This document shows positions 30,809 through 57,668 of a stretch of DNA of 64,000 nucleotides, piece by piece (within the stretch, counting starts at the first letter, position 1; each line of letters begins with the position of its first letter). The notes beneath the pieces were generated by a model. The model searched no databases. It saw only the letters and a list, made by a program, of their open reading frames with translations, and was not told where the DNA came from. The DNA is taken from positions 2,462,627-2,526,626 of the forward strand of contig NZ_OZ242038.1 of NCBI RefSeq assembly GCF_965205175.1, written 5' to 3'. The position numbers were made by a program, and so were the translations under genes. Source of the DNA: Candidatus Poriferisodalis sp. (GTDB lineage Bacteria; Actinomycetota; Acidimicrobiia; Acidimicrobiales; Poriferisodalaceae).

Positions 30809-30812
30809 GTCC

Positions 30813-32050: not shown

Positions 32051-32057
32051 CGGCACC

Positions 32058-32949: not shown

Positions 32950-33083
32950 CGACCGCAGCGGGGCTGGCCGGGCCTGCGATGTGCTGAATGGCCGCGTCGC
33001 TAGCGCTGTGTCGTGCCTCGGGAGGGGCGGCACTGGAGCACGCAACGAAGGCTGCGCAGGCGTTCTCCGCACGCTCGGCGGGC

Positions 33084-44295: not shown

Positions 44296-45933
44296 CTAGC
44301 CGTTGGTGCGGGCAGGCTCGGGGGCGGTGAACGCGAAGTCGTCGCCGTCGCATTGTTCGAGCTTTGCTTCGAGTGCGTCTTGCTCAACGGTGTCGATGGC
44401 GAGATCCCAGCGTGTCTTGACCGCGATCCAGTCCACTGCGTACTGGCAGTGGTACTCATCGTTGGGCGGCCACCACTCTCCCGGGTCGCGTGCGCCCTTG
44501 CTGCGATTGGTGGAATAGCTGACGGCGATGAGCGCCCGCGGATCGCCAAGGTCGTTGCCGAAGCGCTTCCACCTGTCCTCAGACCAAGCGTGGCCGCCGG
44601 AATCCCAAGCTTCCGCCAGCGGCACGAGGTGGTCGATGTCGAGCTGTGAAGCGGTCTCGACCACGGTGTTGTCGTAGGCGGAGTACCAGCTGCCGTCGGG
44701 CAGCTGCTCGTCGGCGAGGACATGCTGCCGCGTGGTCTTGCCGCCGCTGCGGCGCCAATCGCCGAACACCGCGTCTCGGTTGTATCCGCTGCGCATCTCC
44801 GCTTCGACCCGCAGACGCTCGAACAAGCCGATCACGCTGCGGCGGCGTTCGAGGTCGGCAGCTTCGGCTTCCGGGTCGCGAACCGACGCATCGGGGAACG
44901 TGACCGGCGGCAGCACCGTCGTCGCCACGGAGGTCGTCGGTGCAGCGGACTCGTCGCCGTTGTCGTCCCGCAGCAGCCTGAGGCCGCGCTCGGCGAGAAA
45001 CTCCAGCACTTCGGTGCCGGGGATGGCAATGCCGAGCGTGCCCCCCTCGCCCTCGTAGCCGCCGGTGGGCACCCCGACCAGGCGACCGGTCGCGTCGAAC
45101 ATCGCTCCACCGCTGACACCCGAGTCCAGCAGTGCATCGACTTTTAGCTGCCGGTGACCCGCAGGACTGACACTGGTGCCCGAGAAGGTGCCGCTGGTCA
45201 GCGTGAGCGTCTGCTGGCTCTGGCCGAAGCCCGGATAGCCCAAGATCGTGATCTGTGCCCCCAACGCCAGATCGTCCCGCTCGACCTGAAGCGGTGGAGC
45301 GGAGCAGAGCCCCGCTGCGGACAGACGCAGCACCGCTAGGTCCCGAGCCGAGTCGTCGGCTTCGAGTTCGGCTGGCTGCCAGCAGTCCGGCGGATCCTCG
45401 AAGCGCTGTGCGAACCCGATGACGACATCGCAGACCGCGCCATCGGTCTCGGACCGCACGACGTGCGAGTTCGTCAACGCGAATCCGCCGTCGCCGACGA
45501 CGATGCCCGAGCCGGCCTGGTCGCACCCCTCGGAGTAGACCTGTACCACCGACCGCGCAAGCCGCTCCCAGTCGGGCACCTCTTCGTCGGTGACGGCCGG
45601 TGTCCCGGGAACAGTGACGGCCGGCGCCTCGTCGGGCGGCGGGTCATCGCTGGGAGCGCTCTCGTCGTCCGGTCCGCCCAGCACCGTCGGCGCCGTCGGC
45701 GCTTCGCTTCCGGCGTTTGCGGGTCCGTCTGCCGGCGCATCAGGCTCGTCGCGTGGCAGTGAGGTGTCCGCAACGCTCGTCGCGACCGGAGTCGCTTCGT
45801 CACGCGACGCAGGCTCGGCACCAGCGGTGTCGCTGTCGTCTTCTAGAAGGGCGCCGGCGAAAGCGACCACCACCAACAGTGAGGCCAGCGCGCCCAGACC
45901 AGCGAGTACCGGCTTGCGCTTTGCCCAAGCCAT
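44296..45933 (-). CDS. Membrane-anchored trypsin-like serine protease fused to a DUF1524-type (His-Me finger) nuclease domain
   Basis: 545 aa. TM LAGLGALASLLVVVAFAGALL. Protease triad contexts LTNSHVV, DLAVLRL and DSGVSGGAMF. C-terminal nuclease motif LDIDHLVPLAEAWDSGGHAWS...NDLGDPRALIAVSYSTNRSKGARDPGEWWPP. Confidence 0.8.
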   Translation of the reverse strand: MAWAKRKPVLAGLGALASLLVVVAFAGALLEDDSDTAGAEPASRDEATPVATSVADTSLPRDEPDAPADGPANAGSEAPTAPTVLGGPDDESAPSDDPPPDEAPAVTVPGTPAVTDEEVPDWERLARSVVQVYSEGCDQAGSGIVVGDGGFALTNSHVVRSETDGAVCDVVIGFAQRFEDPPDCWQPAELEADDSARDLAVLRLSAAGLCSAPPLQVERDDLALGAQITILGYPGFGQSQQTLTLTSGTFSGTSVSPAGHRQLKVDALLDSGVSGGAMFDATGRLVGVPTGGYEGEGGTLGIAIPGTEVLEFLAERGLRLLRDDNGDESAAPTTSVATTVLPPVTFPDASVRDPEAEAADLERRRSVIGLFERLRVEAEMRSGYNRDAVFGDWRRSGGKTTRQHVLADEQLPDGSWYSAYDNTVVETASQLDIDHLVPLAEAWDSGGHAWSEDRWKRFGNDLGDPRALIAVSYSTNRSKGARDPGEWWPPNDEYHCQYAVDWIAVKTRWDLAIDTVEQDALEAKLEQCDGDDFAFTAPEPARTNG

Positions 45934-46474
45934 GAACCTGCGCCCGCTGGTCCCGCAAGCAGCAGTGGGTGCTGGCGACCGCCGAGCGCGCGCGGAGGCG
46001 TGTCCTCGCTCAGGCGGTGGCGCAGCGCCTCGCTTTGTGGGCGGCGGCGCCGGAGGCGCAGTGTGCGCTGGCGGGGCAACGCGTGGCCGAACACGCGGCG
46101 ATCGGTCGCCAGCGGGGCCTTGCTCTAGGTGCTGCCCCGATTCTCGAGGCGGCGGCCGACGCGAGGTCGGCTCAGGCCGCAGTGGATTGCCGCGGCCGGG
46201 TCGCGGTCGCCCGGGCCGTGGAGGCCTCGGCTCAGACAGCGACCCGCTCCGCGCTATGCGTCACGCCAACCGCAGTTGAAGACTGGCGCGCCAGCACCCG
46301 AACAGTCACGTTTGGCGCTGGGTCGGTGCATCGACCAGCAATACGCCCCGCGGCACGGTTGTCAAGTCAACCAGAACCGCACCGGCAATGCTGAGAGTGG
46401 CGCTCACCGACCCGGCTTGCCCAGCAGCACGGGGCTCAACTCGGGGCCGAAGTACGGCACAACGCCGGCAGCGG

Positions 46475-49400
46475 TCACATCAGCAGCGCTGCAGGCGCCT
46501 CGGCGCTGTCGGACGAGGCCGCATCGTCATCGGCGGCTGCGTCAAGTCGCGCGAGCGACGTCAGACGTTTGAGATCAACAGGTTCGGAGATGTCCACCCG
46601 CACTGCATGGAACAGCACCGTGCCATGCGCTCGCAGGTCGCGGCAACGATGCTCCGCCGGGGCCTCGCCTTCTGGCATCGCGACCGCTTCGGGCCACCAC
46701 ACCCGCGACTCGTACTCGGGCGGGGCCTCGATGCTCGGCGGCAGCGTGCCCGACGGCAGCCGCTTCTCCCCTGCCGGCAGCAGCTCTCCCAGCAGCTGTG
46801 GCAGCGTTTGGCGGCCGGTGCCGCTGCGGCCCAGCGACACGGTGATCCGATCTGACATGAAGGTCTTGGCCATCGCCCGGTTCAGCGCGTCCAGTGCGGT
46901 CTCGTGCAGCAGCGGGTCGAATTCGCCGGAGTACACACGCTGGGCGAAACGCCAGCGCGGCCCAGTGCCCTCGCCGCGCAGCACGGAGTCCAGCGGCATC
47001 GGATAGGCATCGTGCTCCGGCGGCGGCATGAAGCCGTCGGCGCCGATGCCGAATCTGGTCCGTTCGCTGCTGACGAACCGCGACGACATTCGGCGGTATT
47101 GCTCGCGCAGCCAGCCACTCGGTGCCAGCTCCGGCAACAGCTCGCCCAGAAAGGCGTCCCGTGTCTCATCGGTCAGCTGGAGGTCGAACATCAGCAGTTT
47201 GCGGACTGCCGGGGTCGGGTCCTGGGGAGGTGCTGCGGCGTGGTGCGAACCGAAGGGACGGTGCAGCAGCCGGGCGACTACTGCTGCTGTGGTCAGCCAG
47301 TGAGCCTTGAGCGTCTCCAGCGCTGCGGTGCGTGCCGCCGCCGCCTCGCACTCGTCGACCAACTCGTCGATGCGGTCCCGCCAAGCGCTCACCTGTTGCC
47401 GGTCGCGTCGGCGAATGAGCAACACCAGTCCGCCCGTGGCGACTGCCACGGCCACGGCAACGGTCAACAGCACGGTCAGCAGCCGCCAGCTGCGGTCTTC
47501 GAAGATCGTCGGGGCCGTAGCATCAAAGTTGAGCCCCGCGACGGCAATGACGAACGCGTAGACGAAGGGCACCGCTCCGGCCACACGATCCCCCACCAGT
47601 GCTGCCAGCGGACCAAGCAGGCCTCTGTCGCCGGCGAATCCGCTGTCGCCGGCGAATCCGCGGACCCAGGCTGCGATCGCCAACGCCATCACGCTTGACA
47701 CCACCGTGATGGCAGGCATCCACTGGCCCGGCCGGCTGAGCCAGCTCTGCTCGATGGCCGATGCCGCTACCACCGTCACGGCTGCGGTCCCGGCGTAGAC
47801 CGCCGCCACTAGCGTGAGGCGAATCTGTGCGGACCAGCTGCGACTCGGCGTCAGCCGAAGCATCGGCGGCACGGTGGCCGCCAGCGACAGCAGCAAGAAC
47901 GAAGTGATTCTCTGATCCTCGGAGAGCCGGTCAGGCGTGAACACCTCGCGCAGCTCGGTCAAGGTCAACAACGAGCCGGCGCCGATCAGCACCGAAGCCA
48001 GCAAGGCATAGGCGACGAACGAGGTGACCCCCGGCTCGGGCCGGGTCTTCGGGTCGATGTGCTGCTGCAAGAGGCCGATGTGATGCTCGACGTCTCGTTC
48101 GGAGCGCTCGATCTCCTCGTCGAACTGGCGCGTCACTTCTGCGAGCAGCGTCGGCTCGTCTTGCCAGCCCGAGTCGCCAGCATCCGCAAGCGGCAATGTG
48201 CCCGATTCATCGTCTGATTCGTCGTTGTCGGGAGGGTCATCACCCTGCGCATCGCCGGAGCCCGAGTCTGGCGCTGCGGTGTTGATGCTGGCGCCGTCAG
48301 CCGCCGAAGACAGGTGCGCGTTCGGGTCGAGCATGGCAACGGCCTGCGTCAGCTCGTCGGCATCGGGCGCCAGCGCATCGGGGTCGACGACCACATAGCG
48401 GGCGCCGGCGATCTCGTCTCGCACATGGTCAGCGCCCGATGCCGCGTCCGCCATGCCGAACACACCGTCGAGCAGCGCGTCCCAGCCGTCGGTCGGCACA
48501 CGTTCGATGGAGACCGGCGGGCGGCCAGCGTCCAGCAGTTGCTTGGCCTTCTGTCGAACACTTGACGACATGCTGCTGGTGTCGTCGAAATCGTCTGTGC
48601 CTTCGACGAGCGGTGCAGTCCACGGCGCAACCTGCGCAGTCTGTTTGACGTAGTCGTCAAGTCTCGATGCGGCTTGTGCCACGTCCTGATCGCGCTCGAG
48701 CGCGCTACTGATCGTCTCACTGGCGAGACGGCGTGCGCTGGCGGTCTGCGACAGCGGCATCAAGCTGCGCACCTCGCTGTAGGGCGTAGCTGCGGCCCCG
48801 TCAACTGCGTTGGCTTCGTGCAGGCTGCCGTCTGACATGTCGGCTGGCACGCGATAATCCCGCGGATAGATGTACGGCGCAGCAGCCCGAACGGTGTACG
48901 CAGGATCGGGGGCGGGCAGCTGCCCGGGTGTCAGCGGCAACAGCCCCGTGCCGTCTAGCGACTGCTCCGGCGACGGCGTGTGGATACGAGCGGCACGGCA
49001 CATCGAGCGCACCAGCCGAACCAAGGGTCTGCCTACACCGCTCACGGCGCTTGGAACGAACTCGACCGGTGCGCCGTCCATGGTCGACCAGAAACCAGCT
49101 AGGGAGGCAACTTCGACGGCCACGTGCCACGCGTAGACCTCGTCATGGCTTGCATCGTCAGGTTCTCCGTCCCCCACAGGCATCGCTGCTGCGCGTTCGA
49201 ACTGCCGATCCGACGGCAGCACCACCAGAGCGCTGTTGGCCTCAGGGCTGGCAAAATCCTCGCCGGGCACGAGCCCGTCATCGCCGTAACGAGGCACCCA
49301 TACCCGGTGTGAAGCGACTCGGGTGTGCTCTGGCATGATCCGTTGCAGGTCGTGCCGCAGCATTCGGTCCGCCCGCGCTAGTTCGACCTGCTGTGTCGGG

Positions 49401-49780
49401 CCGAGGTCGGCTGTACAGACAGTCACGATGTCAACCCGGCTCAGCGCACCTTGACCGTGCAGCTCGTACATCAGCCCCACCGACCGCCATTCGCCCGCAT
49501 GGAGCAGACGCGAAGAACGCCCAAGGTCCGGTGGTGCCGGATCGTCACTTACGGGCGCACAGCACTCCACGCACATGATCGGCGACAGCTGCAACGCCGC
49601 CGACAGGCCCGTCCAGACATCAAGCGCCGACACCATAGCTCCGTCGTCAGCGCGGTAGAGCACAATCGCAACGCCCTTCGTCCCATCTGCCGCACGAGAA
49701 GCGAAAGACAGATCCGTCTTACTGCTATCCTCGTGTTCCTCCGCCCCAACGGAGGCAATACTCATATCAGTAGCTCTCAT
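46475..49780 (-). CDS. 1101-aa polytopic membrane protein of unknown function (last gene of the vWA/tubulin-like operon)
   Basis: ATG at 49780, 4 nt after the stop of the upstream gene. Soluble N-terminal ~600 aa, then a central cluster of hydrophobic helices (VAYALLASVLIGAGSLL, FLLLSLAATVPPML, LTLVAAVYAGTAAVTVVAA, ITVVSSVMALAIAAWV, VPFVYAFVIAVAGL, LLTVLLTVAVAVAVATGGLVLLI), then a soluble C-terminal ~300 aa. I recognise no domain. Confidence 0.75.
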   Translation of the reverse strand: MRATDMSIASVGAEEHEDSSKTDLSFASRAADGTKGVAIVLYRADDGAMVSALDVWTGLSAALQLSPIMCVECCAPVSDDPAPPDLGRSSRLLHAGEWRSVGLMYELHGQGALSRVDIVTVCTADLGPTQQVELARADRMLRHDLQRIMPEHTRVASHRVWVPRYGDDGLVPGEDFASPEANSALVVLPSDRQFERAAAMPVGDGEPDDASHDEVYAWHVAVEVASLAGFWSTMDGAPVEFVPSAVSGVGRPLVRLVRSMCRAARIHTPSPEQSLDGTGLLPLTPGQLPAPDPAYTVRAAAPYIYPRDYRVPADMSDGSLHEANAVDGAAATPYSEVRSLMPLSQTASARRLASETISSALERDQDVAQAASRLDDYVKQTAQVAPWTAPLVEGTDDFDDTSSMSSSVRQKAKQLLDAGRPPVSIERVPTDGWDALLDGVFGMADAASGADHVRDEIAGARYVVVDPDALAPDADELTQAVAMLDPNAHLSSAADGASINTAAPDSGSGDAQGDDPPDNDESDDESGTLPLADAGDSGWQDEPTLLAEVTRQFDEEIERSERDVEHHIGLLQQHIDPKTRPEPGVTSFVAYALLASVLIGAGSLLTLTELREVFTPDRLSEDQRITSFLLLSLAATVPPMLRLTPSRSWSAQIRLTLVAAVYAGTAAVTVVAASAIEQSWLSRPGQWMPAITVVSSVMALAIAAWVRGFAGDSGFAGDRGLLGPLAALVGDRVAGAVPFVYAFVIAVAGLNFDATAPTIFEDRSWRLLTVLLTVAVAVAVATGGLVLLIRRRDRQQVSAWRDRIDELVDECEAAAARTAALETLKAHWLTTAAVVARLLHRPFGSHHAAAPPQDPTPAVRKLLMFDLQLTDETRDAFLGELLPELAPSGWLREQYRRMSSRFVSSERTRFGIGADGFMPPPEHDAYPMPLDSVLRGEGTGPRWRFAQRVYSGEFDPLLHETALDALNRAMAKTFMSDRITVSLGRSGTGRQTLPQLLGELLPAGEKRLPSGTLPPSIEAPPEYESRVWWPEAVAMPEGEAPAEHRCRDLRAHGTVLFHAVRVDISEPVDLKRLTSLARLDAAADDDAASSDSAEAPAALLM

Positions 49781-49784
49781 CGGT

Positions 49785-52700
49785 CTATGCTTGAGCGCGC
49801 GTTTCGGCAGCCTGCATTATGTCTTCGAGTGCCGGTCTCATATGGCGCTGCCACAATCCCGTCCACTGTGGAGCATCAGAGAGTAGCGCCGGTTCGTTCC
49901 TCCAATCATCACGAAGCTTGGTGAATTTGTCGTCGTAAATGCGCATCAATTTGCGACACTCCTCCGCGACATGACTCGCGCGCCATTCCGGCGAAACAAC
50001 AACGCTGTCCGATTCAGCATCAAGCCAAGCCCGGCATTTCGTACCAGCATCTATCTGGCCAAGCTCCACATACCGCAATAGTGACGCATTCAAGCGCTTG
50101 TATGCAAACAACTCCTGCACGAGTGACCCATCAACTCGGCTAGACACCGCCGCGCGTCCAAGATCTCTCAGCTCAATGTACGGTACAAGCGGACCCGGAT
50201 CCGCCTGTCGATTTACTTCCAAGTAAGACAAGGCGAGCGCTTCTAGAGTCAGCGGCAACGCATCATCATCACCTTCGGCGCTCGACGTTGATAAGCACCC
50301 GGCTGAAAACAATTCATAGGCTTTCCGTTTCGAGATCCAGATTTCCCACATACGCTGTTCGACATCGAACCGTATCTGACCTAGCAACCGACCTGTGAAC
50401 CAACCTCGCGTCATGCATCGAATCAGTGCCTGCGGTGCCGGTACGAAAGATTCTAATGGTTGAGCGCGACGATATTGCCAAAAGTTCTGGCGTTCCATCG
50501 AGGTACTACATTCAGCCCATCGTGCTACAATCGGTCGTAACAGTGAATCGACGACAAGCACCGAGATTGGCGGGTCGAGGATCGTCGTGATGTCGATGTC
50601 CTTTAGCGACCAATCATTTCCTAACGCTTCCTTAGCGACCTGGCTGTCGACTCCCCAGTTCTTTAGTGCTGCCAACACCTCATCTTGGACCACACTGCCA
50701 GCAAACGGAATCTCGGAAAGGTAGATCTTCGGGCGAACATTAGTCGCCTGTGCCGGTTGAACTTTACCCAACAGTTGCTGGTCAACGCTGACCAGAGGTG
50801 CAGCGCCTGCCATCGCAGCACCGAGTTGACCCATGACGCGTGATTGCCTCTGCGTTACGTTCGCAAAATTCGCCGCCGCTAGTACAGCACTATTGCCATC
50901 TCCGCCGTCCACAAATTCTCGAAGTGAGCAATTGATAAGACGTTCCCATACCGAGCCGGTGTCCCGTAGTCGATGATGGGCCCTCTTCTCAAGAGCATCG
51001 ATACGCGTCATGATCGTCACCGACAGCGAAGAAGGTGGGCCATCCATTAACGCCCTATCTAGCGAAGGCAGTTCCGGATTCCAGTCCTGCTGAATATACA
51101 CACAGGAACGCCAGTCATGGTGCTGTAGCTGAGATCCGTCCTTGAAAAAACAACCGGTGATGACATCGCTCCTGATCTTTTCGCGCTGGGCCGAAGTTGT
51201 TGTTGCCAGTCCGATATCACGCGCCAACAACTCATAAAATATGTCCGAATAGTGTGCGGGATCAATTAGCGAATAATCGCCCTTAGGTGGTCGCTCGCTG
51301 TCAGCCGGTGCAGCACCGTCCCAAGCTGGCCAAGCGTTTGTCTGCCGAAAATCCTGATCTAGGTCATCAGCTGCGGCACGTAACGCATTCGCCAAGGGCC
51401 GCAGAATGCCTTTTGCGATTTGTTCGGCCAAGTCAGCCGCCCGTTGGCCGAGTAAAGCGGCGCCGTCAAATTGGGCAAGATAAACGCCTTGTCTTATGGC
51501 TTCAGCAAGGCGCCGGTCGTTAGCACCAATTTTCCCTTTGATGTTAACCAACACCTGTGTGACTTCAGTGCCAACTGTGCTAGCCCACGCTTCGCGGCGC
51601 GAAGCCTCAGTACGCAGGGTGTGAACGTCATGAAACAGCTTATCAGCGATTGCATCAGACAGTTTCGCGGTCAAGCGTAAGCCGTAAAGGCCGATACAAC
51701 GTTCGATTTCATCAAGTATCTGCGTTTGAATGATGCCGCGGCAAGCCATCGTCGAGGTATCGAGTTCATTACGATAATCCAACAAATACTTGTTCTTCGC
51801 CGCATCGATTGCAGCGACAATCTGCTCTTTCCATTGTGTCGCTTTCAGTTTCACAGTGGCATCACCATCGACTCCTGAGTTGCTTCGAACCGACCGCTCT
51901 AGTTCATCATCCAGTCGGCGAACTGGTTGCAGCTGACGAATGATCTGATGGTTCTCGAATTTGGTACCAGCGAGTCCGGTGACAGACAGGACACTTGTTA
52001 GCAGTAGCTCTGACATGGCATTCAAGATTTGGTCCGGGTGCTGACTCTTTAGCTTTTGGCCGGTCTGCGTCGCAAGATGAGAATCCGTATGAAACTTGGT
52101 TAGATGCCGAACTGCCTCGCGCACAAGACGCCGCTTAGCGAAGAGCCCAAAGTAATGACCACCGACTGACAGACGAGAGAAGCCAACAGCAGATATACAC
52201 GGCGGGCCAACTTCGTAGGGCTTGCCAAGGTTAACCAATACTTCGCCTGCGCTTGCATTAGCCTTTGCAGCTGTTTGATCCCAGTTTGTCAACGTGTATC
52301 CACTGATGTGATTCCAGACGGTGTTATCTGTCACCCACGACAACATGGCACGCGCGGCGATCTCAAATACGCGTTCGGGCGTGCCATGGTCAACATTCCC
52401 TGATGACCTTCGGCCCACCAAGAAAGGATACTGAGGGCCGCTTCTCTTTTGCGGCTTCGGCAGCCCGATTTTGCTTAGTAGCGGGTTTGTCTTTGGTTCC
52501 GGGAGACCAGTAGCCTGTTTGACGCTTCCGTGCCACCATTGTCCGTTCAACATCTCGCAAATGGCGGCGAAACTGTTGGGGTAGACTCCTTCAGTTTGCG
52601 CGACATTCACAGCTTCGAACACTTCTGGAGTGTAGAGCAGTGCAACGATGCGCTCAGCAGCCGGCGTATTCATCGCTCGCAGCACGTCACAGACGGTCGT

Positions 52701-53276
52701 CAAGAGGCCAGAACCAGCGCCACCTGCTAATGAACCAACAACAATTATTGACATCACGGGTGCTTTGGTTGACCCGGCGAATAGTCCAGGATTAGCGTTC
52801 GCAGAAAGCTGAACCAGCTGGGCTTGAGCTTCAGGTCCAGTCATATCCTGAATTTTGGCTCTCAAGGAGTTGTGGATCGTCCGCGCGTACGCTAGCGCCA
52901 CAGAGTGGCCGATAGCTCTCCACTGACCAGCGCCTTGATCAAGTTGCACTTGGACACCAGCTGGTTCTACGCGCCAGGTCCGCAATTCATCGATGATGGG
53001 GGGAGGCATGCCATCCAAGATGGTCTGCAACGACTCGAAATCCATACCGGGAGGAATGAGACCAAGATATTCATCGTCAGCAAGATTCGGTACGCGATCA
53101 TCGATTTCTTGTCCGTCAGCCTGGGTTGGTGTATCAATATGCAGAAACTGCCATGCGCTGGGGATGGAACTGCCAGGGGAACGTGACGCTAGCCACGTTG
53201 CCATTGCGTGCTTGAGAAACCGAAGTGTCTTGCCACCGGACCCGCCCAAACCAACAAACAGAAACCTATTGTACAC
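49785..53276 (-). CDS. Giant tubulin/FtsZ-like (Tubulin_2 / FtsZl-1-type) putative GTPase, 1163 aa
   Basis: N-terminus MYNRFLFVGLGGSGGKTL (T1-loop-like GxGGxG), GAGQWRAIGH, and IIVVGSLAGGAGSGLL, which resembles the tubulin/FtsZ signature GGGTGSG. About 850 further aa are mostly helical with no TM segment. GC content is markedly lower. Confidence 0.8.
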   Translation of the reverse strand: MYNRFLFVGLGGSGGKTLRFLKHAMATWLASRSPGSSIPSAWQFLHIDTPTQADGQEIDDRVPNLADDEYLGLIPPGMDFESLQTILDGMPPPIIDELRTWRVEPAGVQVQLDQGAGQWRAIGHSVALAYARTIHNSLRAKIQDMTGPEAQAQLVQLSANANPGLFAGSTKAPVMSIIVVGSLAGGAGSGLLTTVCDVLRAMNTPAAERIVALLYTPEVFEAVNVAQTEGVYPNSFAAICEMLNGQWWHGSVKQATGLPEPKTNPLLSKIGLPKPQKRSGPQYPFLVGRRSSGNVDHGTPERVFEIAARAMLSWVTDNTVWNHISGYTLTNWDQTAAKANASAGEVLVNLGKPYEVGPPCISAVGFSRLSVGGHYFGLFAKRRLVREAVRHLTKFHTDSHLATQTGQKLKSQHPDQILNAMSELLLTSVLSVTGLAGTKFENHQIIRQLQPVRRLDDELERSVRSNSGVDGDATVKLKATQWKEQIVAAIDAAKNKYLLDYRNELDTSTMACRGIIQTQILDEIERCIGLYGLRLTAKLSDAIADKLFHDVHTLRTEASRREAWASTVGTEVTQVLVNIKGKIGANDRRLAEAIRQGVYLAQFDGAALLGQRAADLAEQIAKGILRPLANALRAAADDLDQDFRQTNAWPAWDGAAPADSERPPKGDYSLIDPAHYSDIFYELLARDIGLATTTSAQREKIRSDVITGCFFKDGSQLQHHDWRSCVYIQQDWNPELPSLDRALMDGPPSSLSVTIMTRIDALEKRAHHRLRDTGSVWERLINCSLREFVDGGDGNSAVLAAANFANVTQRQSRVMGQLGAAMAGAAPLVSVDQQLLGKVQPAQATNVRPKIYLSEIPFAGSVVQDEVLAALKNWGVDSQVAKEALGNDWSLKDIDITTILDPPISVLVVDSLLRPIVARWAECSTSMERQNFWQYRRAQPLESFVPAPQALIRCMTRGWFTGRLLGQIRFDVEQRMWEIWISKRKAYELFSAGCLSTSSAEGDDDALPLTLEALALSYLEVNRQADPGPLVPYIELRDLGRAAVSSRVDGSLVQELFAYKRLNASLLRYVELGQIDAGTKCRAWLDAESDSVVVSPEWRASHVAEECRKLMRIYDDKFTKLRDDWRNEPALLSDAPQWTGLWQRHMRPALEDIMQAAETRAQA

Positions 53277-53392
53277 TTGTTATACTCGATTCTTATCTCT
53301 TTAGTTTACTTGAGAAGATTACTTATGAGTGCGCAGAGGGATGAGGAAGGCCATCGAGTCGTCGCTACTCAAGCCCGTGCCACCATATGACC

Positions 53393-56300
53393 TCAGTTTG
53401 TGGGCGACGGCGGTGGCGGCGGTGGGTCAGCGTCCATATCAGGCAGTTGCATTTTGGCGTCGCCAACGTCAGGATCACTAGCAGGACGCTGATTCATCTT
53501 GATATCAGGCTGACTGACATTGCGCACCTCGGCCGAGTCCATGATTTGCTCGAGCAAATTCGTCGCTTCAAAATTTTGGATCATTCCCATGTCACTAGCT
53601 TGTGGCAAGGCCAACCAGATGTTTGCCACGGCGGAGTTGCCGATATTGTCTGTATCTAGAATGCCCACGATCAGTAGTCGATCGAATTCCGCTGGAGCTG
53701 CCGCTACGGTCGAGCGCTTAGACTGCCTGCGGCCTTTCGGTGAAACTGCGATCACGCCATTGGCAGCTTGTACCTCGCTCCACGGTCCGCGTAGCAACCC
53801 AGGCAACCAAAATCGCGGGGAACGACGAAGCAGTACACTGATGCTGCTGGTTCCCGATTGTGATGCCGGACCCTTCCATCGCCGATAGCGAGGCTTAGTC
53901 TGGCCGACTACTCGCCCCAATATGGCTTCTCCAGGCGCTGACTGCAGCGCGGCTATAGGATCGTCTTCGAATGAGTGGGTCCGCCCGCCATTGCTGTGAA
54001 TCCTCAAGGCGGCGCGATGCCACCGGAAGGCGGCTGGATTGGGCAAGCTGAAGGTTGAGCATAGAGCCAAGCAGAAAAGCACATAGCTGACCAGCAGACT
54101 GGCGATGAGCAGCAGGATCGTGAGCCAGCGCGCCACGCCCGAATCACTGCGCGCTGCGTATGAGGCATCGACCGGCAGGTCTGCGCGTTGGTCTGCCATT
54201 TGCTCAGCAGCGAGAGTGTTGAAGGCGTCATCGTCTTGGGCGGTCTGCCACTCGAGACGCAGCCGGATGACGCCGTCGATGCTCCAGTCACCGTTGGCCA
54301 GTTCGTCAGGAGTGACGAAATACAGCCGCATTCTGCCGTCGACCAAGTCGGCATCGGCATCGAGCCGCAGTGTCAGGCCGTCCTCACTGAGGGCCCCGGC
54401 ATCAGGGCGGCCGTGCCGAGCGGAGTCGAAACGCCAATCAAGAAGTTGGTTGTCGTCTGCAGCGCCCGTGTCGGAGCTGTCAGACAGGTCAGGCTGCCAT
54501 CGCGCGGTCAGCACCGCAGTACCTGTCTCCGGCGGCGTCAGATAGCAGGCCGACTCGCCGCGCAGGGGTTCGCGGGGAAGTTCGTCTTGCGCCGGTAGGA
54601 CTTCCAGCGCGCTGACTCCGTCGGGGCCCGAATCGCAGGCAAGCGCAGGAGCACCGACGCAGTCGTACAACCGCTGGGCGGGTCCGACGACCCGAATCCG
54701 GACGTGCTCCTCTATCTGGCCAGGCCCGAACATTTCCTCGGTGAGTGGCGGTTCCCACCTGTACTCGAACGGTCGGGTGAAGTCGTACGGCTCTTGGCAC
54801 TCAAGAGGTTTCAGCTCGAATACGACTCTTCGGTCGTCAACCTCAGCGCGGTCGTCGTCCTCAGCGCGGTCGTCGTCGCGCTCGCAATACACGCGGTGTA
54901 CCCGTTCGTCGAGCCACTCGTCGGGAAGGTTGTCGCACAGGCCTTGCGGTGCAGGATTCACGATGATTCGACTGCCGTCGAGTATGGGACTCGTGACTCG
55001 ACCCGATATGCCGACCGACTCCCGATCTTCGCCGCTGTCAAAGTCGCGTCCGTCGCGCGTCGCGCCGTCTCCCCGCCCGCCGTTCTCGTCGCTGGCAGGG
55101 CCACTTCCGTCGGGCTGTTCTCCGCTCTCGCCGTTGTCAGGGCTACCCCCGTCCGGCCTCTCACCGCTCTCGTCGTCAGGTGCAGGCCCCCGCTTGGGTG
55201 CTCGAATGACGTCTTCAAGCGGCTTTTCTTCCGGTCCAGGTCCGACAGCTTCGGCATCGACGTCTTGCCGGTCGGGGATGTTGCGGAGCACGTAGCATGT
55301 GACGAGCGCACCTTCATTGCCTGCGGTCTCAATCAGCAGGCGCCAGCCGGCGGCGAGGCCGGACAGCTCCTGACTGCGAATGCGAAGTGGTTCCGTGCCG
55401 CTGCCGCTGCCGTTGATCTCGGGTACGTTGCCCGCCGGATCAATCTTGTACCCATTGATTTGCGCCCCATCACGCGGGTATGCGACGATCTCACGGATGT
55501 ACCGGCCTGCGGGCATCTCTTCTGAGAACGTTCCGGGGGCTAGGTTCGCACCGCAATCCGGCCATTCCTCTAGGTCGCGGATGGCTTGCTCCAGCTTCTC
55601 GATCAGCAGATCGGCTAAGCTTCCCAACTCGCTGCCACTGATGACTTCGCCGCGGCGGTCGGCCTGCGGGTCGTCGCTCCACTGCGCGCAGTCGATGCCG
55701 AGTGACTCCGGAAGACCGACCGGACTCGGCAGTCCTGCGTCGCCGGTCAGCGCGCGGAGTATCTGCTTGGGTGCGTCGGCCATCTCGTCCTTGGCGCCAC
55801 GCTCGTCACTCTGCTCTTGCTGACGCCGGAAATCGTCGCCGATGAGCACGGCAAACGTCTGAATGCCCGCATCCTCGTAGCGACGCTTCAGCGGACCGCA
55901 CACCTCATGCCGCAACTCCTCAGCTTCCTGCCTGAGCAACCGTTCATCCGGTGACCGCGAGGTCATCTGCCCCGTCGGGTCGTGCAAGCCGTCGGTGAAG
56001 AACAGCAGCACTTTGCACGCGTCGGCGGCACTGTCGCGCCGGAACGCCTGCTCGATCTCATTGAGCGCAGCGAGGTAGTTGGTGTGGCTGACGCGACGGC
56101 TGCCGTCCGCCCTGCGCTCGCCCAGCGAATCGTCGATCGCCTCGTCGGACGGATGCAGTGAGGTGATCTGCTCAAAGCCGGCCACCCGGGCCACACGAGT
56201 ATCGAAACGCCACAGCGACAGCCGCACCTTGCCCACCTCGGCGGCCTCGTCGTCTTGCATCGCACGGAGCTCTTCGATCAGAGCGACCAACTTGTCGCGG

Positions 56301-56584
56301 AACATCCTCAGCGCCGTGCTGCGCTGCCGGCCGGCAGGGTCGCTGCCCGATCGCGGCGCGTTCAGCGACCCCGACGCGTCCATCATCACCAACACGTCGA
56401 TGTCACTCTGATCGGGGCACGGCGTGTAGCCGCCGGACTGCGCGCCCGCGTGAGCACCGCCGGCGAGGGTCAACAACGGCGCTGCGATCAGCACAGTGCA
56501 CAGCACAGCCAGCACGCGTCGGGCGCTACGGCCACTGTGGACGCAGCTGATGGGCAGCCTGTCGGTGCGGGGCGGGTGGCTCAC
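53393..56584 (-). CDS. vWA-domain membrane protein, about 1063 aa
   Basis: I prefer the GTG at 56584 (GTGA overlap with the upstream stop); the track start is 56614. N-terminal signal/anchor RRVLAVLCTVLIAAPLLTLAGGAHA. vWA MIDAS elements VLVMMDASGS...SHTNY...VLLFFTDGLHD. Acidic low-complexity middle. TM WLTILLLIASLLVSYVLFCLALC near residue 830, then a ~220-aa tail. Confidence 0.8.
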   Translation of the reverse strand: MSHPPRTDRLPISCVHSGRSARRVLAVLCTVLIAAPLLTLAGGAHAGAQSGGYTPCPDQSDIDVLVMMDASGSLNAPRSGSDPAGRQRSTALRMFRDKLVALIEELRAMQDDEAAEVGKVRLSLWRFDTRVARVAGFEQITSLHPSDEAIDDSLGERRADGSRRVSHTNYLAALNEIEQAFRRDSAADACKVLLFFTDGLHDPTGQMTSRSPDERLLRQEAEELRHEVCGPLKRRYEDAGIQTFAVLIGDDFRRQQEQSDERGAKDEMADAPKQILRALTGDAGLPSPVGLPESLGIDCAQWSDDPQADRRGEVISGSELGSLADLLIEKLEQAIRDLEEWPDCGANLAPGTFSEEMPAGRYIREIVAYPRDGAQINGYKIDPAGNVPEINGSGSGTEPLRIRSQELSGLAAGWRLLIETAGNEGALVTCYVLRNIPDRQDVDAEAVGPGPEEKPLEDVIRAPKRGPAPDDESGERPDGGSPDNGESGEQPDGSGPASDENGGRGDGATRDGRDFDSGEDRESVGISGRVTSPILDGSRIIVNPAPQGLCDNLPDEWLDERVHRVYCERDDDRAEDDDRAEVDDRRVVFELKPLECQEPYDFTRPFEYRWEPPLTEEMFGPGQIEEHVRIRVVGPAQRLYDCVGAPALACDSGPDGVSALEVLPAQDELPREPLRGESACYLTPPETGTAVLTARWQPDLSDSSDTGAADDNQLLDWRFDSARHGRPDAGALSEDGLTLRLDADADLVDGRMRLYFVTPDELANGDWSIDGVIRLRLEWQTAQDDDAFNTLAAEQMADQRADLPVDASYAARSDSGVARWLTILLLIASLLVSYVLFCLALCSTFSLPNPAAFRWHRAALRIHSNGGRTHSFEDDPIAALQSAPGEAILGRVVGQTKPRYRRWKGPASQSGTSSISVLLRRSPRFWLPGLLRGPWSEVQAANGVIAVSPKGRRQSKRSTVAAAPAEFDRLLIVGILDTDNIGNSAVANIWLALPQASDMGMIQNFEATNLLEQIMDSAEVRNVSQPDIKMNQRPASDPDVGDAKMQLPDMDADPPPPPPSPTN

Positions 56585-56877
56585 GGCCTCGTCAGGTCCT
56601 GCGCCCAGTACCACAGGTGAAGCGCGCCGAACACCCAGCTGCCGAACGTGGCCCAGCCGACCATCTTTCGGGCGCTGGGGCGCCAGTCATTGTACCTCAG
56701 GGTGGCGCGGGCCTTGTTGTCGGCCTTCAAGAACAGGTACAGCGTCAAGATGCTGACGAAGCAGCCGATCAGGTAGCCGAGCGTGTTGAAGTCGACCTCG
56801 CGGCCGGTCGCGGCGATGCCGTACTCGACGCGTGCGCCCAGCAGGAAGCTGAGCAGGGTGCAAAGCAGCACCGCCAC
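56581..56877 (-). CDS. Small three-TM membrane protein, first gene of the operon; probably the 3' part of a longer gene split by a homopolymer frameshift
   Basis: 98-aa ORF from a GTG with no SD. Hydrophobic helices VLLCTLLSFLLGA, LGYLIGCFVSILTLYLFL and MVGWATFGSWVFGALHLWYW. See the poly-G finding. Confidence 0.6.
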   Translation of the reverse strand: MAVLLCTLLSFLLGARVEYGIAATGREVDFNTLGYLIGCFVSILTLYLFLKADNKARATLRYNDWRPSARKMVGWATFGSWVFGALHLWYWAQDLTRP

Positions 56878-56950
56878 AGTCGCAACGAAACTCGGTATCG
56901 GCGGTCCGGCTGCTTTGCCGGCCGCCGCCGGACTAAAGGGTGGCTGGTGA

Positions 56951-56963
56951 CCCCCCCCCCCCC
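56951..56963. repeat. 13-nt C homopolymer on the plus strand (G13 on the coding minus strand)
   Basis: Counted directly: tggctggtga-ccccccccccccc-aactgcg. Confidence 0.98.
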
Positions 56964-57191
56964 AACTGCGGTGGGGCCAACCCTGGCTTGGGTGGCGGAG
57001 GCGGAGGTGGCGGTCCGGCTGCCAGCGTCACCCGTGGTCCCCTCTACTAGCAGCAGCCCACGGCTGCCTCCTTGCGGGCGGCGATACTAGCGGTCGGCTC
57101 GCTCGGTCGCATCGTCTCGGCGCGCCGCATGAAGCTCGACGGCGTGCCTCGCGCCTGCAGCCCGCCGAACATGAGCCGAACATGATGCGGG

Positions 57192-57668
57192 TTGAGGCGT
57201 CGGCTCGGCGCGCGGAAAATGCCGCCGGGGGTGCTGCTGGGGGGCGGTAGCTTGCGTGACGTGGAGCACGCGCCGTCGCTCATCCTCGCCGCCACCTTCG
57301 CGTTCGGCGTGCTCGGGCTGCTCTGGCAGAACCGCGGCGCCAACGCGCGTCACGAGCGGCTCGAAGCCAAAATCGACGCTCGACGCACCGAACTCAGCAC
57401 CAAGATCGAACAGCGCACCGACTCACTGCGCACCGAGATGAACGAGGAACTGCGGCAGGTACGCCACGACATCACCGCCCAGACCGCAGTCATCTCAGAC
57501 CTAGCCCAGCGAGTGTCCCGACTCGAAGGCGCAATTTTGGGCCCGGCCGCCCCGCCGGACATCGACACCGGTTCACACGAGCAAGCCGCACCAGCGCCCG
57601 GCGGCGGCACCGCACGAGCCTCCACCGGGTCGGCGACGGACCCGCAGCAGGCCGCCAACCCGGCCTGA
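57192..57668 (+). CDS. Small membrane-anchored coiled-coil protein of unknown function, divergent from the operon; start uncertain
   Basis: TM SLILAATFAFGVLGLLW followed by the heptad-like ERLEAKIDARRTELSTKIEQRTDSLRTEMNEELRQVRHDITAQTAVISDLAQRVSRLEGAI. An internal GTG (VEHAPS...) is an alternative start. Confidence 0.45.
   Translation: MRRRLGARKMPPGVLLGGGSLRDVEHAPSLILAATFAFGVLGLLWQNRGANARHERLEAKIDARRTELSTKIEQRTDSLRTEMNEELRQVRHDITAQTAVISDLAQRVSRLEGAILGPAAPPDIDTGSHEQAAPAPGGGTARASTGSATDPQQAANPA

What the first reader, a model, noticed from the sequence alone, without database searches (positions are those of the whole stretch)
46475..57031. Uncharacterised four-gene operon: small TM protein, vWA membrane protein, giant tubulin/FtsZ-like protein and 1101-aa polytopic protein
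Seen in sequence: four co-directional minus-strand genes are tightly packed. There is a GTGA overlap at 56581-56584, a 116-nt gap at 53277-53392, and a 4-nt gap at 49781-49784. Gene 2 has an intact vWA MIDAS (DASGS...T...FFTDG) after a signal/anchor, plus a late TM helix. This suggests an extracytoplasmic vWA domain with a ~220-aa cytoplasmic tail. Gene 3 has no TM segment. It carries GLGGSGGK and SLAGGAGSG, matching the T1 loop and the GGGTGSG signature of FtsZ/tubulin, followed by about 850 aa of unassigned helical sequence. Gene 4 has two large soluble domains flanking a central cluster of six or more hydrophobic helices. Established knowledge: divergent FtsZ/tubulin families (Pfam Tubulin_2; FtsZl-1 of Makarova and Koonin 2010, as I recall it) are predicted to act in membrane remodelling but have no experimentally defined role. 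Inference: this could be a transmembrane machine coupling an external vWA ligand-binding module to a cytoplasmic GTP-dependent polymer. Its island location next to a nuclease fusion and an orphan ATPase makes a conflict/defence or envelope-remodelling role plausible. I do not recognise this gene set as any named system.
Basis: partly seen in the sequence, partly recalled or inferred. Interest (0 to 1): 0.85.

Follow-up and report, generated by a model that had tools for sequence, protein, structure and literature searches.

The report
Tubulin-like GTPase and vWA membrane operon
This is a sponge-symbiont copy of a membrane-associated gene cluster built around a giant tubulin-like GTPase and a surface vWA protein. 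The cluster was predicted by comparative genomics in 2010 and has never been tested experimentally; here it has a conserved fifth gene (a membrane-anchored protease) and a tubulin-like gene that looks recently swapped in.

Summary
The four minus-strand genes are real and tightly packed, with the motifs described. The small gene is 98 aa (56581-56877), not 150.

Gene 3 is a Pfam Tubulin_2/FtsZl1 protein (E 1.9e-34). Its AlphaFold model (pLDDT 92) matches only FtsZ/tubulin-superfamily structures. Gene 2 belongs to a vWA family with a conserved MIDAS motif.

The order g1-g2-g3-g4 is conserved in about 50 Actinomycetota and other loci. The set is not unnamed. It has the layout of the B2-vWA-FtsZl1-B3 core tabulated by Makarova & Koonin (2010). 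Kaur et al. (2020) re-read this tubulin+vWA gene set as a theme within predicted GAP1-N2 DO-GTPase conflict systems. g4 is homologous to B3-position proteins (hhalign 99.5%). The DO-GTPase/GAP1/B4-B6 genes are absent here.

New points:
- A membrane-anchored, catalytically intact trypsin-like protease lies just downstream in 20 of 50 loci. In this window it is fused to a GmrSD_C nuclease. It has a conserved cytoplasmic N-terminal motif.
- g3 plus the cytoplasmic tail of g2 form a sharp low-GC block, and g3 is anomalously divergent. This indicates replacement by recombination.
- The locus is syntenic (secDF/relA), not a mobile island.

Function remains untested. It is most likely a trans-membrane complex that couples an external vWA/protease module to a cytoplasmic GTPase.

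The parts
56581..56877 (-). g1: a 98-aa small membrane protein with 2-3 TM segments. It resembles the B2 family.
   Evidence: The ORF starts at the first GTG after the upstream stop. An independent gene call gives 98 aa. TM segments are at 1-21 and 30-52 by hydropathy, plus a probable third at about 72-92 read from the sequence. The family alignment A4 (18 sequences) has invariant W65, W81, G84, H87 and R97 and a DNxRR..RYxDW motif. The gene lies upstream of g2 in 37 of 55 loci. hhalign against Rhodococcus B2 is inconclusive: probability 15.8%, E 0.0016.
53393..56584 (-). g2: a 1063-aa membrane protein with a type-I-like topology. It has a signal/anchor (aa 20-46), an extracytoplasmic vWA-MIDAS domain (aa ~64-200; nt 55988-56395), a ~550-aa Cys-containing ectodomain, a TM segment (aa 814-848; nt 54041-54145) and a 215-aa cytoplasmic tail (nt 53396-54040).
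   Evidence: In the window protein VWA_2 scores only E 0.0045, but 27 of 28 family members hit VWA_2 (best 6e-10) and 9 hit VWA. The profile search of PDB returns only vWA domains, including SpaC at 2.3e-4 and integrin I-domains. MIDAS D69xS71xS73, T168 and D198 and seven conserved Cys are present. A g2 homologue lies directly upstream of g3 in 56-57 of 57 loci.
53277..53392 (-). The 116-nt spacer between g2 and g3, lying inside the low-GC block.
   Evidence: Spacer length varies from 5 to 120 nt among relatives. There is no Rfam match. Promoter and terminator counts do not exceed the shuffled controls.
49785..53276 (-). g3: a 1163-aa cytoplasmic FtsZl1/Tubulin_2 protein. It has a tubulin/FtsZ-like GTPase region (aa 6-389; nt 52110-53261), a T1 loop (nt 53229-53252), a T4 signature (nt 52707-52733), three long helices (aa 479-646) and a mixed alpha/beta C-terminal region (aa 660-1163).
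   Evidence: Pfam Tubulin_2 scores E 1.9e-34. There are 326 full-length homologues of about 1150 aa. The AlphaFold2 model has mean pLDDT 92.3 and pTM 0.85. All 50 listed Foldseek PDB hits are FtsZ/tubulin/CetZ/TubZ/BtubA, with probability 0.99-1.00 and TM-score normalised to the target up to 0.48. There is no sequence match to any PDB chain.
46475..49780 (-). g4: a 1101-aa polytopic B3-family protein. It has a ~580-aa N-terminal domain, about 6 TM helices (aa 583-791; nt 47408-48034) and a ~310-aa C-terminal domain. Both soluble domains are inferred to be cytoplasmic.
   Evidence: TM segments come from hydropathy, supported by helices in the low-confidence model. RRRDRQQ follows the last TM and there is no N-terminal signal sequence. 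hhalign of family A2 against the proteins downstream of FtsZl1 gives probability 99.5%, E 1.6e-22 for Amycolatopsis/Kutzneria and others. Against Rhodococcus B3 it gives 97.7%, E 2e-12. A g4 homologue lies directly downstream of g3 in 53 of 57 loci. There are no Pfam or PDB matches. The whole family comprises only 161 clusters among 1.84 billion representatives.
44296..45933 (-). g5: a 545-aa membrane-anchored extracytoplasmic trypsin-like serine protease. It has a TM segment (aa 6-33), a Trypsin_2 domain (aa 141-288; nt 45070-45513) and a GmrSD_C/DUF1524 HNH-type nuclease domain (aa 420-521; nt 44371-44676).
   Evidence: Pfam gives Trypsin_2 at 2.5e-23 and GmrSD_C at 2.4e-8. The gene is co-directional and directly downstream of g4 in 20 of 50 loci, often within 0-40 nt. 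Catalytic H157, D198 and S274 are invariant in 19 sequences. The nuclease tail occurs only in the window and L001.
46141..46188 (-). The conserved motif NPLRPEPTSRRPPPRE, in frame upstream of the annotated g5 start.
   Evidence: It aligns with the conserved N-terminal cytoplasmic motif (S/N)PL..RRPPxR of the protease family. In the window no ATG/GTG/TTG follows the stop at about 46263. Only CTG 46239 is available; it lies close to where L001 has its TTG start, by my reading of the aligned upstream peptides. The true start is therefore uncertain.
49785..53900 (.). A low-GC block (GC 0.50-0.58) covering g3, the spacer and the part of g2 that encodes its cytoplasmic tail.
   Evidence: The 300-nt GC profile and per-gene GC3 values are: g3 0.53, g4 0.77, g1 0.94, protease 0.80, relA 0.89. 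In 50-codon windows g2 falls from 0.84-0.92 to 0.52-0.64 after aa 850. Identity between the window and L001 is g1 72, g4 66, g2 50 and g3 47%. Relatives of similar distance keep g3 at or above g4, for example L002 vs L016 at 77/65/61/78.

Best explanation
The locus is an Acidimicrobiia (Candidatus Poriferisodalis) member of the FtsZl1 (Pfam Tubulin_2)-vWA membrane-associated gene system. It is present in a minimal form with five components:
- a small B2-like membrane protein (g1)
- a type-I-like membrane protein (g2) with its vWA-MIDAS ectodomain outside and a ~215-aa tail inside
- a cytoplasmic tubulin-superfamily GTPase (g3) with a long helical stalk and a large C-terminal region
- a polytopic B3-family protein (g4) whose two large domains are cytoplasmic
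- a membrane-anchored protease (g5) with its catalytic domain outside, here carrying an extra DUF1524 nuclease, and a conserved short peptide motif inside

Most likely mechanism (inferred, not shown): the five proteins form one trans-membrane complex. The nucleotide state or GTP-dependent self-assembly of FtsZl1 at the membrane is scaffolded by g4 and the g2 tail. This is coupled across the membrane to ligand binding by the MIDAS site and to the external protease. The complex would therefore be an envelope-level sensing or remodelling device.

It is a stably inherited chromosomal system, not a mobile defence island. Its central genes are nevertheless exchanged by recombination between lineages.
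For: Shown:
- g3 is Tubulin_2. It has a high-confidence model whose structural matches are exclusively FtsZ/tubulin superfamily. T1 and T4 nucleotide-binding motifs are invariant in 112 homologues.
- g2 has a vWA domain with conserved MIDAS and conserved cysteines, flanked by TM segments.
- g4 is homologous to B3-position proteins.
- Gene order is conserved: g2 in 56-57 of 57 loci, g4 in 53 of 57, g1 in 37 of 55, protease in 20 of 50.
- The 4-nt stop/start overlaps are conserved.
- The layout is identical to B2-vWA-FtsZl1-B3 in Makarova & Koonin's tables, e.g. Xcel_1380-1377 and cgR_2628-2625.
- The locus sits at the same secDF/relA site in relatives. A second four-gene copy lies in a housekeeping context in the same genome.
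- The family is absent from phages and found on only 2 megaplasmids.
- None of g1-g4 hits PADLOC.

Inferred:
- Physical contact between the g2 tail and g3. The low-GC replaced block covers exactly g3 plus the tail-coding end of g2.
- Coupling of the protease to the cytoplasmic side. Its N-terminal cytoplasmic motif is conserved across distant loci.
Against: - There is no experimental datum for any member of the family. A literature search found only in silico work.
- Makarova & Koonin could not identify the T6-H7/T7 elements needed for canonical polymerisation. Foldseek TM-scores normalised to the target are only 0.3-0.48, so polymer formation is unproven.
- The g4 model is poor (pLDDT 47), and its topology rests on hydropathy and charge.
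- g1-B2 homology is not established.
- Some distant homologues are flanked by restriction-modification (RM) and toxin-antitoxin (TA) genes. A PDC-S01 candidate defence ATPase abuts this locus. These contexts fit a conflict role at least as well as a housekeeping one.
- The window's protease may lack its conserved N-terminal motif if translation starts at ATG 45933.
Confidence: 0.55

Rival explanations
1. It is a biological-conflict (immune) system in the sense of Kaur et al. 2020. The exposed, fast-evolving vWA ectodomain senses a phage, competitor or host factor. FtsZl1 acts as the NTP-dependent switch or assembly platform. The external protease (plus nuclease here) is the effector.
For: - Kaur et al. 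place actinobacterial tubulin+vWA genes within predicted GAP1-N2 DO-GTPase conflict systems.
- The central genes are replaced by recombination in this window and in the L005/L028 pair.
- g2 is among the least conserved components: lowest in most close pairs, with g4 lowest among distant ones.
- The protease and nuclease domains look like effectors.
- RM and TA genes flank the cluster in L080 and L081.
- A PDC-S01 candidate lies next door.
- A type II CRISPR-Cas locus lies 13 kb away.
Against: - The defining DO-GTPase, GAP1 and FNIII components are absent from the window and from all 77 loci.
- g1-g4 give no PADLOC hit.
- The position is stable and syntenic between housekeeping genes, and a second copy sits beside pyruvate kinase.
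- The family is absent from phages and essentially absent from plasmids.
- The protease and nuclease are extracytoplasmic, which is unusual for abortive-infection effectors.
- No member has been shown to defend against anything.
Confidence: 0.3
2. It is a housekeeping membrane-remodelling or envelope-biogenesis machine, as in the original Makarova & Koonin hypothesis. FtsZl1 polymers would deform or organise the cytoplasmic membrane, for example for vesicles or localised wall remodelling. The vWA protein and protease would act on cell-wall or surface proteins.
For: - Makarova & Koonin's context analysis.
- All partner proteins are membrane proteins.
- g3 has a long helical stalk.
- The cluster is inherited vertically at a core-genome site.
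- There are two paralogous copies per genome.
Against: - The family is patchy in distribution and non-essential; it is absent from most bacteria.
- Canonical polymerisation elements have not been identified.
- Recombinational replacement and a fast-evolving ectodomain are atypical for housekeeping machinery.
- No phenotype has been reported.
Confidence: 0.3
3. It is a TubZ-like DNA-segregation or mobile-element maintenance module.
For: TubZ structures are among the Foldseek hits. A DUF4143 ATPase lies next door.
Against: - There is no TubR-like DNA-binding partner and no repeat array.
- All partners are membrane or extracytoplasmic proteins.
- The cluster is chromosomal and syntenic.
- It is not found on phages and is almost never on plasmids.
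- The protein is 1163 aa with a conserved C-terminal 750 aa that has no counterpart in TubZ.
Confidence: 0.02

Closest known systems
FtsZl1 (FtsZ-like 1, Pfam Tubulin_2 PF13809)-vWA predicted operons of Makarova & Koonin 2010 (PMC2875224). The closest are the actinobacterial ones: Xylanimonas Xcel_1380-1377, and C. glutamicum cgR_2628-2621 = B2-vWA-FtsZl1-B3-B4-B5-B6-GTPase.
   Same: The order, orientation and sizes match: a small membrane protein (84-204 aa), a ~900-1000-aa vWA protein with a signal/TM segment and intact MIDAS, a ~1100-1200-aa FtsZl1 and a ~870-1030-aa membrane protein. g3 is Tubulin_2. g4 is homologous to B3-position proteins.
   Different: - B4, B5, B6 and the GTPase are absent, as in the Xylanimonas cluster.
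- A membrane-anchored trypsin-like protease is a recurrent fifth gene. The paper does not list it for actinobacteria; it lists only a COG0265 protease beside a Gemmata FtsZl1.
- g1-B2 homology is unproven.
- The paper found no full FtsZ core. The AlphaFold2 model aligns over about 375-410 columns with FtsZ/tubulin chains.
GAP1-N2-type DO-GTPase-centric predicted conflict systems, actinobacterial 'tubulin' theme (Kaur, Burroughs, Iyer & Aravind 2020, eLife, PMC7159879).
   Same: Both have a single tubulin-domain protein fused to a C-terminal alpha-helical region, and a membrane-bound vWA protein with a beta-rich extracellular part. Both are membrane-proximal. Trypsin-fused partners are mentioned for planctomycete versions.
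   Different: The defining constant pair (DO-GTPase + GAP1) and the FNIII-repeat/HRDC proteins are not present in the window or in any related locus. No fn3 domain was detected in 28 g2 homologues. The tubulin-vWA module therefore occurs here on its own.
Canonical FtsZ / tubulin / CetZ / TubZ cytomotive GTPases.
   Same: Fold of the nucleotide-binding region. T1 (GGSGG) and T4 (GGxGxG) motifs are conserved.
   Different: - There is no FtsZ_C or Tubulin_C domain and no sequence-level PDB match.
- T7 was not identified.
- There are about 750 extra conserved residues.
- The partners are membrane proteins rather than division or segregation proteins.
- Polymerisation is untested.
Integrins (functional analogy only).
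   Same: An extracellular MIDAS-containing vWA/I-domain on a single-pass protein, whose short cytoplasmic tail is linked to a cytoskeletal-type NTPase system.
   Different: There is no homology beyond the vWA fold. The link between the tail and FtsZl1 is inferred only from co-replacement.

Membership tests
FtsZl1-vWA operon (Makarova & Koonin 2010) | An FtsZl1 protein: an N-terminal FtsZ-like GTP-binding domain with T1 and GGGTG(S/T)G-type T4 motifs, then a long helical/coiled-coil region, then a helical C-terminal domain, about 1000-1200 aa in all. | tested here: met
   Tubulin_2 scores E 1.9e-34. GLGGSGGK and SLAGGAGSG have invariant glycine/serine core residues across the family. The AlphaFold2 model has long helices at 479-646 followed by a C-terminal region. 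All 50 listed Foldseek hits are FtsZ/tubulin superfamily.
FtsZl1-vWA operon (Makarova & Koonin 2010) | An adjacent gene for a vWA protein with intact MIDAS, often with a signal peptide or TM segment. | tested here: met
   VWA_2 hits 27 of 28 homologues. PDB hits are vWA domains only. DxSxS..T..D is conserved. TM segments are at 20-46 and 814-848. The gene lies upstream of g3 in 56-57 of 57 loci.
FtsZl1-vWA operon (Makarova & Koonin 2010) | Actinobacterial accessory family B3: a large membrane protein directly downstream of FtsZl1. | tested here: met
   hhalign gives 99.5%, E 1.6e-22 against Amycolatopsis/Kutzneria and others. It gives 97.7%, E 2e-12 against the protein downstream of FtsZl1 in Rhodococcus opacus. 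Direct tblastn hits of Rhodococcus B3 fall on g4 positions in L023, L043, L046 and L063. B3 identity of the Rhodococcus protein was assigned by position against the published R. opacus B4 table.
FtsZl1-vWA operon (Makarova & Koonin 2010) | Actinobacterial accessory family B2: a small membrane protein upstream of the vWA gene. | tested here: inconclusive
   Position, size and TM pattern are the same. hhalign gives probability 15.8%, E 0.0016. The g1 HMM hits the equivalent ORF in Amycolatopsis/Kutzneria at 1e-4 to 1e-5.
FtsZl1-vWA operon, full actinobacterial form | B4 (FNIII protein), B5, B6 and the Zn-ribbon GTPase downstream of B3. | tested here: not met
   tblastn with the Rhodococcus pRho-G13 B4/B5/B6/GTPase proteins finds nothing in the window (best E 0.013) or within 10 kb of g3 in 77 loci. 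The rest of the genome could not be searched.
GAP1-N2 DO-GTPase-centric conflict system (Kaur et al. 2020) | The constant core: a DO-GTPase (TRAFAC GTPase, usually with Zn ribbons) plus GAP1, plus an FNIII-repeat protein. | tested here: not met
   There is no homologue of the Rhodococcus GTPase/B5/B6. There is no P-loop GTPase among the five genes. No fn3 hit was found in g2 homologues. GAP1 profiles were not available, so GAP1 absence rests on tblastn and on gene content only.
Canonical FtsZ/tubulin | A C-terminal activation domain (FtsZ_C/Tubulin_C) and a T7 catalytic loop that enable head-to-tail polymerisation. | tested here: inconclusive
   There is no FtsZ_C or Tubulin_C Pfam hit, and PF00091 reaches only E 0.095. 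Foldseek alignments span about 375-410 columns, but the TM-score normalised to the target is 0.48 or less. Model coordinates could not be inspected residue by residue.
Known or candidate anti-phage systems (PADLOC-DB 2.0) | A match of the system's proteins to a defence-system model. | tested here: not met
   g1-g4 match no families. g5 gives only domain-level trypsin matches to RT-Protease_XI and PDC-M35A.

The most novel reading that the evidence does not exclude
The minimal FtsZl1 module (g1-g4 plus the protease) is an autonomous surface-surveillance immune device. A hypervariable external vWA sensor and an external protease/nuclease are wired through the membrane to a tubulin-superfamily GTPase. 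The assembly of that GTPase sets the response threshold. The repeated replacement of the GTPase together with the sensor's cytoplasmic tail records an arms race with inhibitors that target this interface. This would be the first tubulin-family protein acting as an immune switch in bacteria.
Probability: 0.2. Interest if true: 0.85.

Novelty: new variant of a known kind. Interest (0 to 1): 0.5.

Why it matters
FtsZl1/Tubulin_2 is the most divergent branch of the FtsZ-tubulin superfamily. It has had no experimental function since its description in 2010.

This locus and its roughly 50 relatives add several things:
- They define a minimal conserved core of four genes that stands without the DO-GTPase/GAP1 apparatus.
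- They add a recurrent external protease partner with a conserved cytoplasmic docking-type motif.
- They give a high-confidence full-length model.
- Co-replacement of g3 and the g2 tail gives a concrete, testable prediction of which surfaces touch.

These points narrow the experiments needed to decide between a membrane-remodelling role and an immune role. The organism itself is an uncultured sponge symbiont, so tests would have to be done in Corynebacterium or Rhodococcus, or heterologously.

Tried and rejected
- NCBIfam and PADLOC on g1-g4 gave nothing useful.
- PDB sequence searches with the g3 and g4 profiles gave only noise: a FliG fragment and TM-helix matches.
- The third homologous-protein search, with the divergent g4 alignment A2, returned the same 24 close hits and added nothing. 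The g4 structure therefore had only a shallow alignment and came out poor (pLDDT 47).
- Foldseek on the g4 model gave no significant hit. vWA-fold proteins (collagen VI, Ku, TFIIH p44, NorD) recur among the weak hits. I record this only as a lead.
- A Rosetta-stone attempt on unusually long or short g4 relatives found no fused Pfam domain.
- Promoter and terminator scans did not exceed the shuffled controls. Rfam found nothing.
- The ORF at 57192-57668 (TM plus coiled coil) between the ATPase and g1 is not conserved in relatives, so I excluded it from the system.
- I rejected the TubZ-like segregation reading and chance adjacency.
- I considered in-situ accelerated evolution as the cause of g3's divergence. 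I rejected it because GC3 drops from about 0.8 to 0.53 while all family-invariant residues are kept.

Full report
**Observation.** The window is high-GC (about 0.69) and comes from Candidatus Poriferisodalis sp., an Acidimicrobiia sponge-associated lineage. g3 is 100% identical to an NCBI protein of that organism on a 2.80-Mb contig.

Four co-directional minus-strand ORFs exist as described:
- g4 at 46475-49780 (1101 aa)
- g3 at 49785-53276 (1163 aa)
- g2 at 53393-56584 (1063 aa from the GTG that overlaps the g1 stop)
- g1

The 4-nt gap, the 116-nt gap and the GTGA overlap are correct. The stated upper limit 57031 is not. That span is out of frame and abuts a stop codon, and the first start codon is the GTG at 56877. 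g1 is therefore 98 aa. This agrees with an independent gene call and with 97-aa homologues.

**The individual proteins.**

g3 matches Pfam Tubulin_2 (PF13809) over residues 6-389 at E 1.9e-34. It has 326 detectable homologues, nearly all about 1150 aa and alignable end to end. The T1 (G9-G15) and T4 (S182-G190) loops are invariant. An AlphaFold2 model built on 112 sequences is very confident (pLDDT 92.3, pTM 0.85). Against the PDB, all 50 listed hits are FtsZ, tubulin, CetZ, TubZ or BtubA (probability 0.99-1.00, 373-414 aligned columns, TM-score normalised to the target up to 0.48). No PDB chain matches by sequence. After residue ~400 the model has three 30-60-residue helices (479-646) and a mixed alpha/beta region to the C-terminus.

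g2 alone scores weakly for vWA (E 0.0045). However, 27 of 28 family members hit VWA_2, and the family profile finds only vWA domains in the PDB. The MIDAS residues and seven cysteines are conserved. Hydropathy places a signal/anchor at 20-46 and a TM segment at 814-848, leaving a 215-aa cytoplasmic tail.

g4 has no Pfam or PDB relative. It has about six TM helices between residues 583 and 791. By the positive-inside rule, both large domains lie in the cytoplasm; this is an inference. Its AlphaFold2 model is poor (pLDDT 47) except for an alpha/beta domain at about 35-190. Foldseek gives nothing significant.

g1 is a conserved 2-3-TM protein.

**Conserved linkage.** A scan of one genome per species gave 77 loci. 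tblastn and then HMM searches of all ORFs gave these counts among loci with enough flank:
- a g2 homologue directly upstream of g3 in 56-57 of 57
- a g4 homologue directly downstream in 53 of 57
- a g1 homologue in 37 of 55
- g1, g2 and g4 all present alongside g3 in 32 of 50

The loci include Amycolatopsis and Kutzneria. The g1/g2 4-nt overlap is conserved. The same genome carries a second, 38%-identical four-gene copy next to pyruvate kinase.

**A fifth component.** It follows g4 on the same strand in 20 of 50 loci, often within 0-40 nt. Its catalytic His, Asp and Ser are invariant. The family shares an N-terminal cytoplasmic motif, (S/N)PL..RRPPxR, followed by a Pro/Arg-rich linker, a TM segment, a Pro-rich linker and the protease domain. 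The GmrSD_C/DUF1524 nuclease tail occurs only in this window and in L001.

In the window the conserved motif lies in frame upstream of the annotated ATG. No canonical start codon precedes it; only a CTG is available, close to where L001 has its TTG start.

**Comparison with what is known.** Makarova & Koonin (2010) defined FtsZl1 and tabulated actinobacterial operons as B2 (small membrane protein), vWA, FtsZl1, B3 (large membrane protein), B4, B5, B6 and a Zn-ribbon GTPase. They also listed a four-gene Xylanimonas cluster of 84, 918, 1118 and 1027 aa.

I fetched a Rhodococcus opacus megaplasmid copy for direct comparison:
- The g4 family is homologous to the protein in the B3 position (hhalign 97.7%). 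It is also homologous to the equivalent proteins of Amycolatopsis, Kutzneria and others (99.5%, E 1.6e-22).
- g1 against B2 is inconclusive.
- B4, B5, B6 and the GTPase have no counterpart in the window or in any of the 77 loci.

Kaur et al. (2020) describe the actinobacterial tubulin and membrane-vWA genes as one theme of GAP1-N2 DO-GTPase-centric systems, which they predict to be conflict systems. The defining pair of those systems, DO-GTPase plus GAP1, is missing here.

No experimental study of any member turned up. The gene set is therefore a known, predicted and uncharacterised kind. This locus is a minimal variant of it with an added protease.

**Island or not.** In close relatives the cluster sits at the same place, secD-secF-[cluster]-relA-hisS. 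In more distant ones relA-hisS lie just upstream. g3 has no relatives in 50,697 phage records. Among 72,556 plasmids it has relatives only on two non-mobilisable Rhodococcus megaplasmids. g1-g4 hit no PADLOC model.

Other evidence points the other way:
- The adjacent DUF4143 ATPase is a PDC-S01 candidate defence gene (E 6.8e-77), and its position varies between relatives.
- Two distant homologues are flanked by restriction-modification or toxin-antitoxin genes.
- A type II CRISPR-Cas locus lies 13 kb away.

The context evidence is mixed.

**Recombination inside the operon.** g3, the spacer and the tail-coding end of g2 form a sharp low-GC block (GC 0.50-0.58). Per-gene GC3 values are: g3 0.53, g4 0.77, protease 0.80, relA 0.89, g1 0.94. 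Within g2, GC3 falls from 0.84-0.92 at the N-terminus to 0.52-0.64 after residue 850.

Among relatives g3 is normally at least as conserved as g4. For example, L002 vs L016 gives g1 77, g2 61, g3 78 and g4 65%. The window vs L001 gives g1 72, g2 50, g3 47 and g4 66%. All family-invariant g3 residues are retained.

I conclude that g3 and the g2 tail were replaced from an unsampled lower-GC relative. Similar internal low-GC patches and discordant identities occur in L005, L028 and L035. The co-transfer of g3 with the tail of g2 is the best available hint that the two interact.

**Mechanism.**

Shown:
- domain identities
- conserved operon structure
- intact nucleotide-binding, MIDAS and protease catalytic residues

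Predicted from sequence: membrane topology, from hydropathy, charge distribution and conserved ectodomain cysteines.

Inferred: one trans-membrane complex, in which the cytoplasmic FtsZl1 is scaffolded by g4 and the g2 tail and is coupled to the external vWA site and protease.

I cannot decide whether the output is envelope remodelling (Makarova & Koonin) or a conflict response (Kaur et al.), and I rate them about equally. Polymerisation of FtsZl1 is unproven. The 2010 paper could not find T6-H7/T7, and I could not inspect the model coordinates.

**Verdict.** The locus is a new variant of a known but experimentally untouched system, of moderate interest.

Noticed in passing
window 49785-53900: A sharp low-GC block (GC3 about 0.52 against 0.77-0.94 in flanking genes) covers g3, the 116-nt spacer and the cytoplasmic-tail end of g2. 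GC3 rises gradually outwards into g2 and into the first ~50 codons of g4. Together with the discordant identities (g3 47% but g4 66% to L001), this indicates recombinational replacement from an unsampled lower-GC donor. L005, L028 and L035 show similar internal patches.
   Followed up: partly
window 45934-46263: The protease ORF is open upstream of its annotated ATG (45933). This upstream stretch encodes the family's conserved N-terminal motif (NPLRPEPTSRRPPPRE, 46141-46188). No ATG/GTG/TTG follows the stop at about 46263; only CTG 46239 is available, close to where L001 has its TTG start. Either a non-canonical start is used or this copy has lost its cytoplasmic motif.
   Followed up: partly
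window 27683-32953: A type II CRISPR-Cas locus lies in a second low-GC region (GC 0.58-0.62). It has a 1041-aa Cas9 (RuvC_III, HNH_4 and Cas9 alpha-helical lobe domains) and an array of 14 repeats with a 66-nt period, i.e. a repeat unit of about 36 nt (shared core ACTTTAGCAGGTCAGGGAATGGTCGGCTGCCAAAAC), at 32058-32953.
   Followed up: partly
window 57894-59171 (+): An AAA_14/DUF4143 ATPase matches the PADLOC candidate defence family PDC-S01 over its full length (E 6.8e-77). It is inserted between secF and g1. Different DUF4143 genes (33-43% identity) lie at other positions next to the cluster in L002, L012, L020 and L029.
   Followed up: partly
window 57192-57668 (+): A 158-aa ORF (called as 149 aa in the public assembly) has one TM segment and a coiled-coil-like region. 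It is divergent from g1, has no Pfam or PADLOC match, and is not conserved in related loci.
   Followed up: partly
L079 (same species, contig ctg128865) 6452-16782: A second, paralogous four-gene cluster (129 aa, VWA_2 1028 aa, Tubulin_2 1168 aa, 1081 aa) has no protease. It is followed by pyruvate kinase. Each genome therefore carries at least two such systems.
   Followed up: partly
window 46475-49780 (g4 residues ~35-190): This is the only confidently modelled part of g4. It is an alpha/beta domain whose weak, non-significant Foldseek hits are repeatedly vWA-fold proteins (collagen VI, Ku, TFIIH p44, NorD). It has no DxSxS motif. It may be a MIDAS-less vWA-like cytoplasmic domain.
   Followed up: no
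window 49634-49780: NCBI annotates g4 as 1052 aa, starting about 49 codons downstream of the ATG at 49780. The upstream codons encode a beta-strand (residues 36-43) that aligns with close homologues and is modelled with fair confidence. The longer ORF is therefore more likely to be correct.
   Followed up: partly
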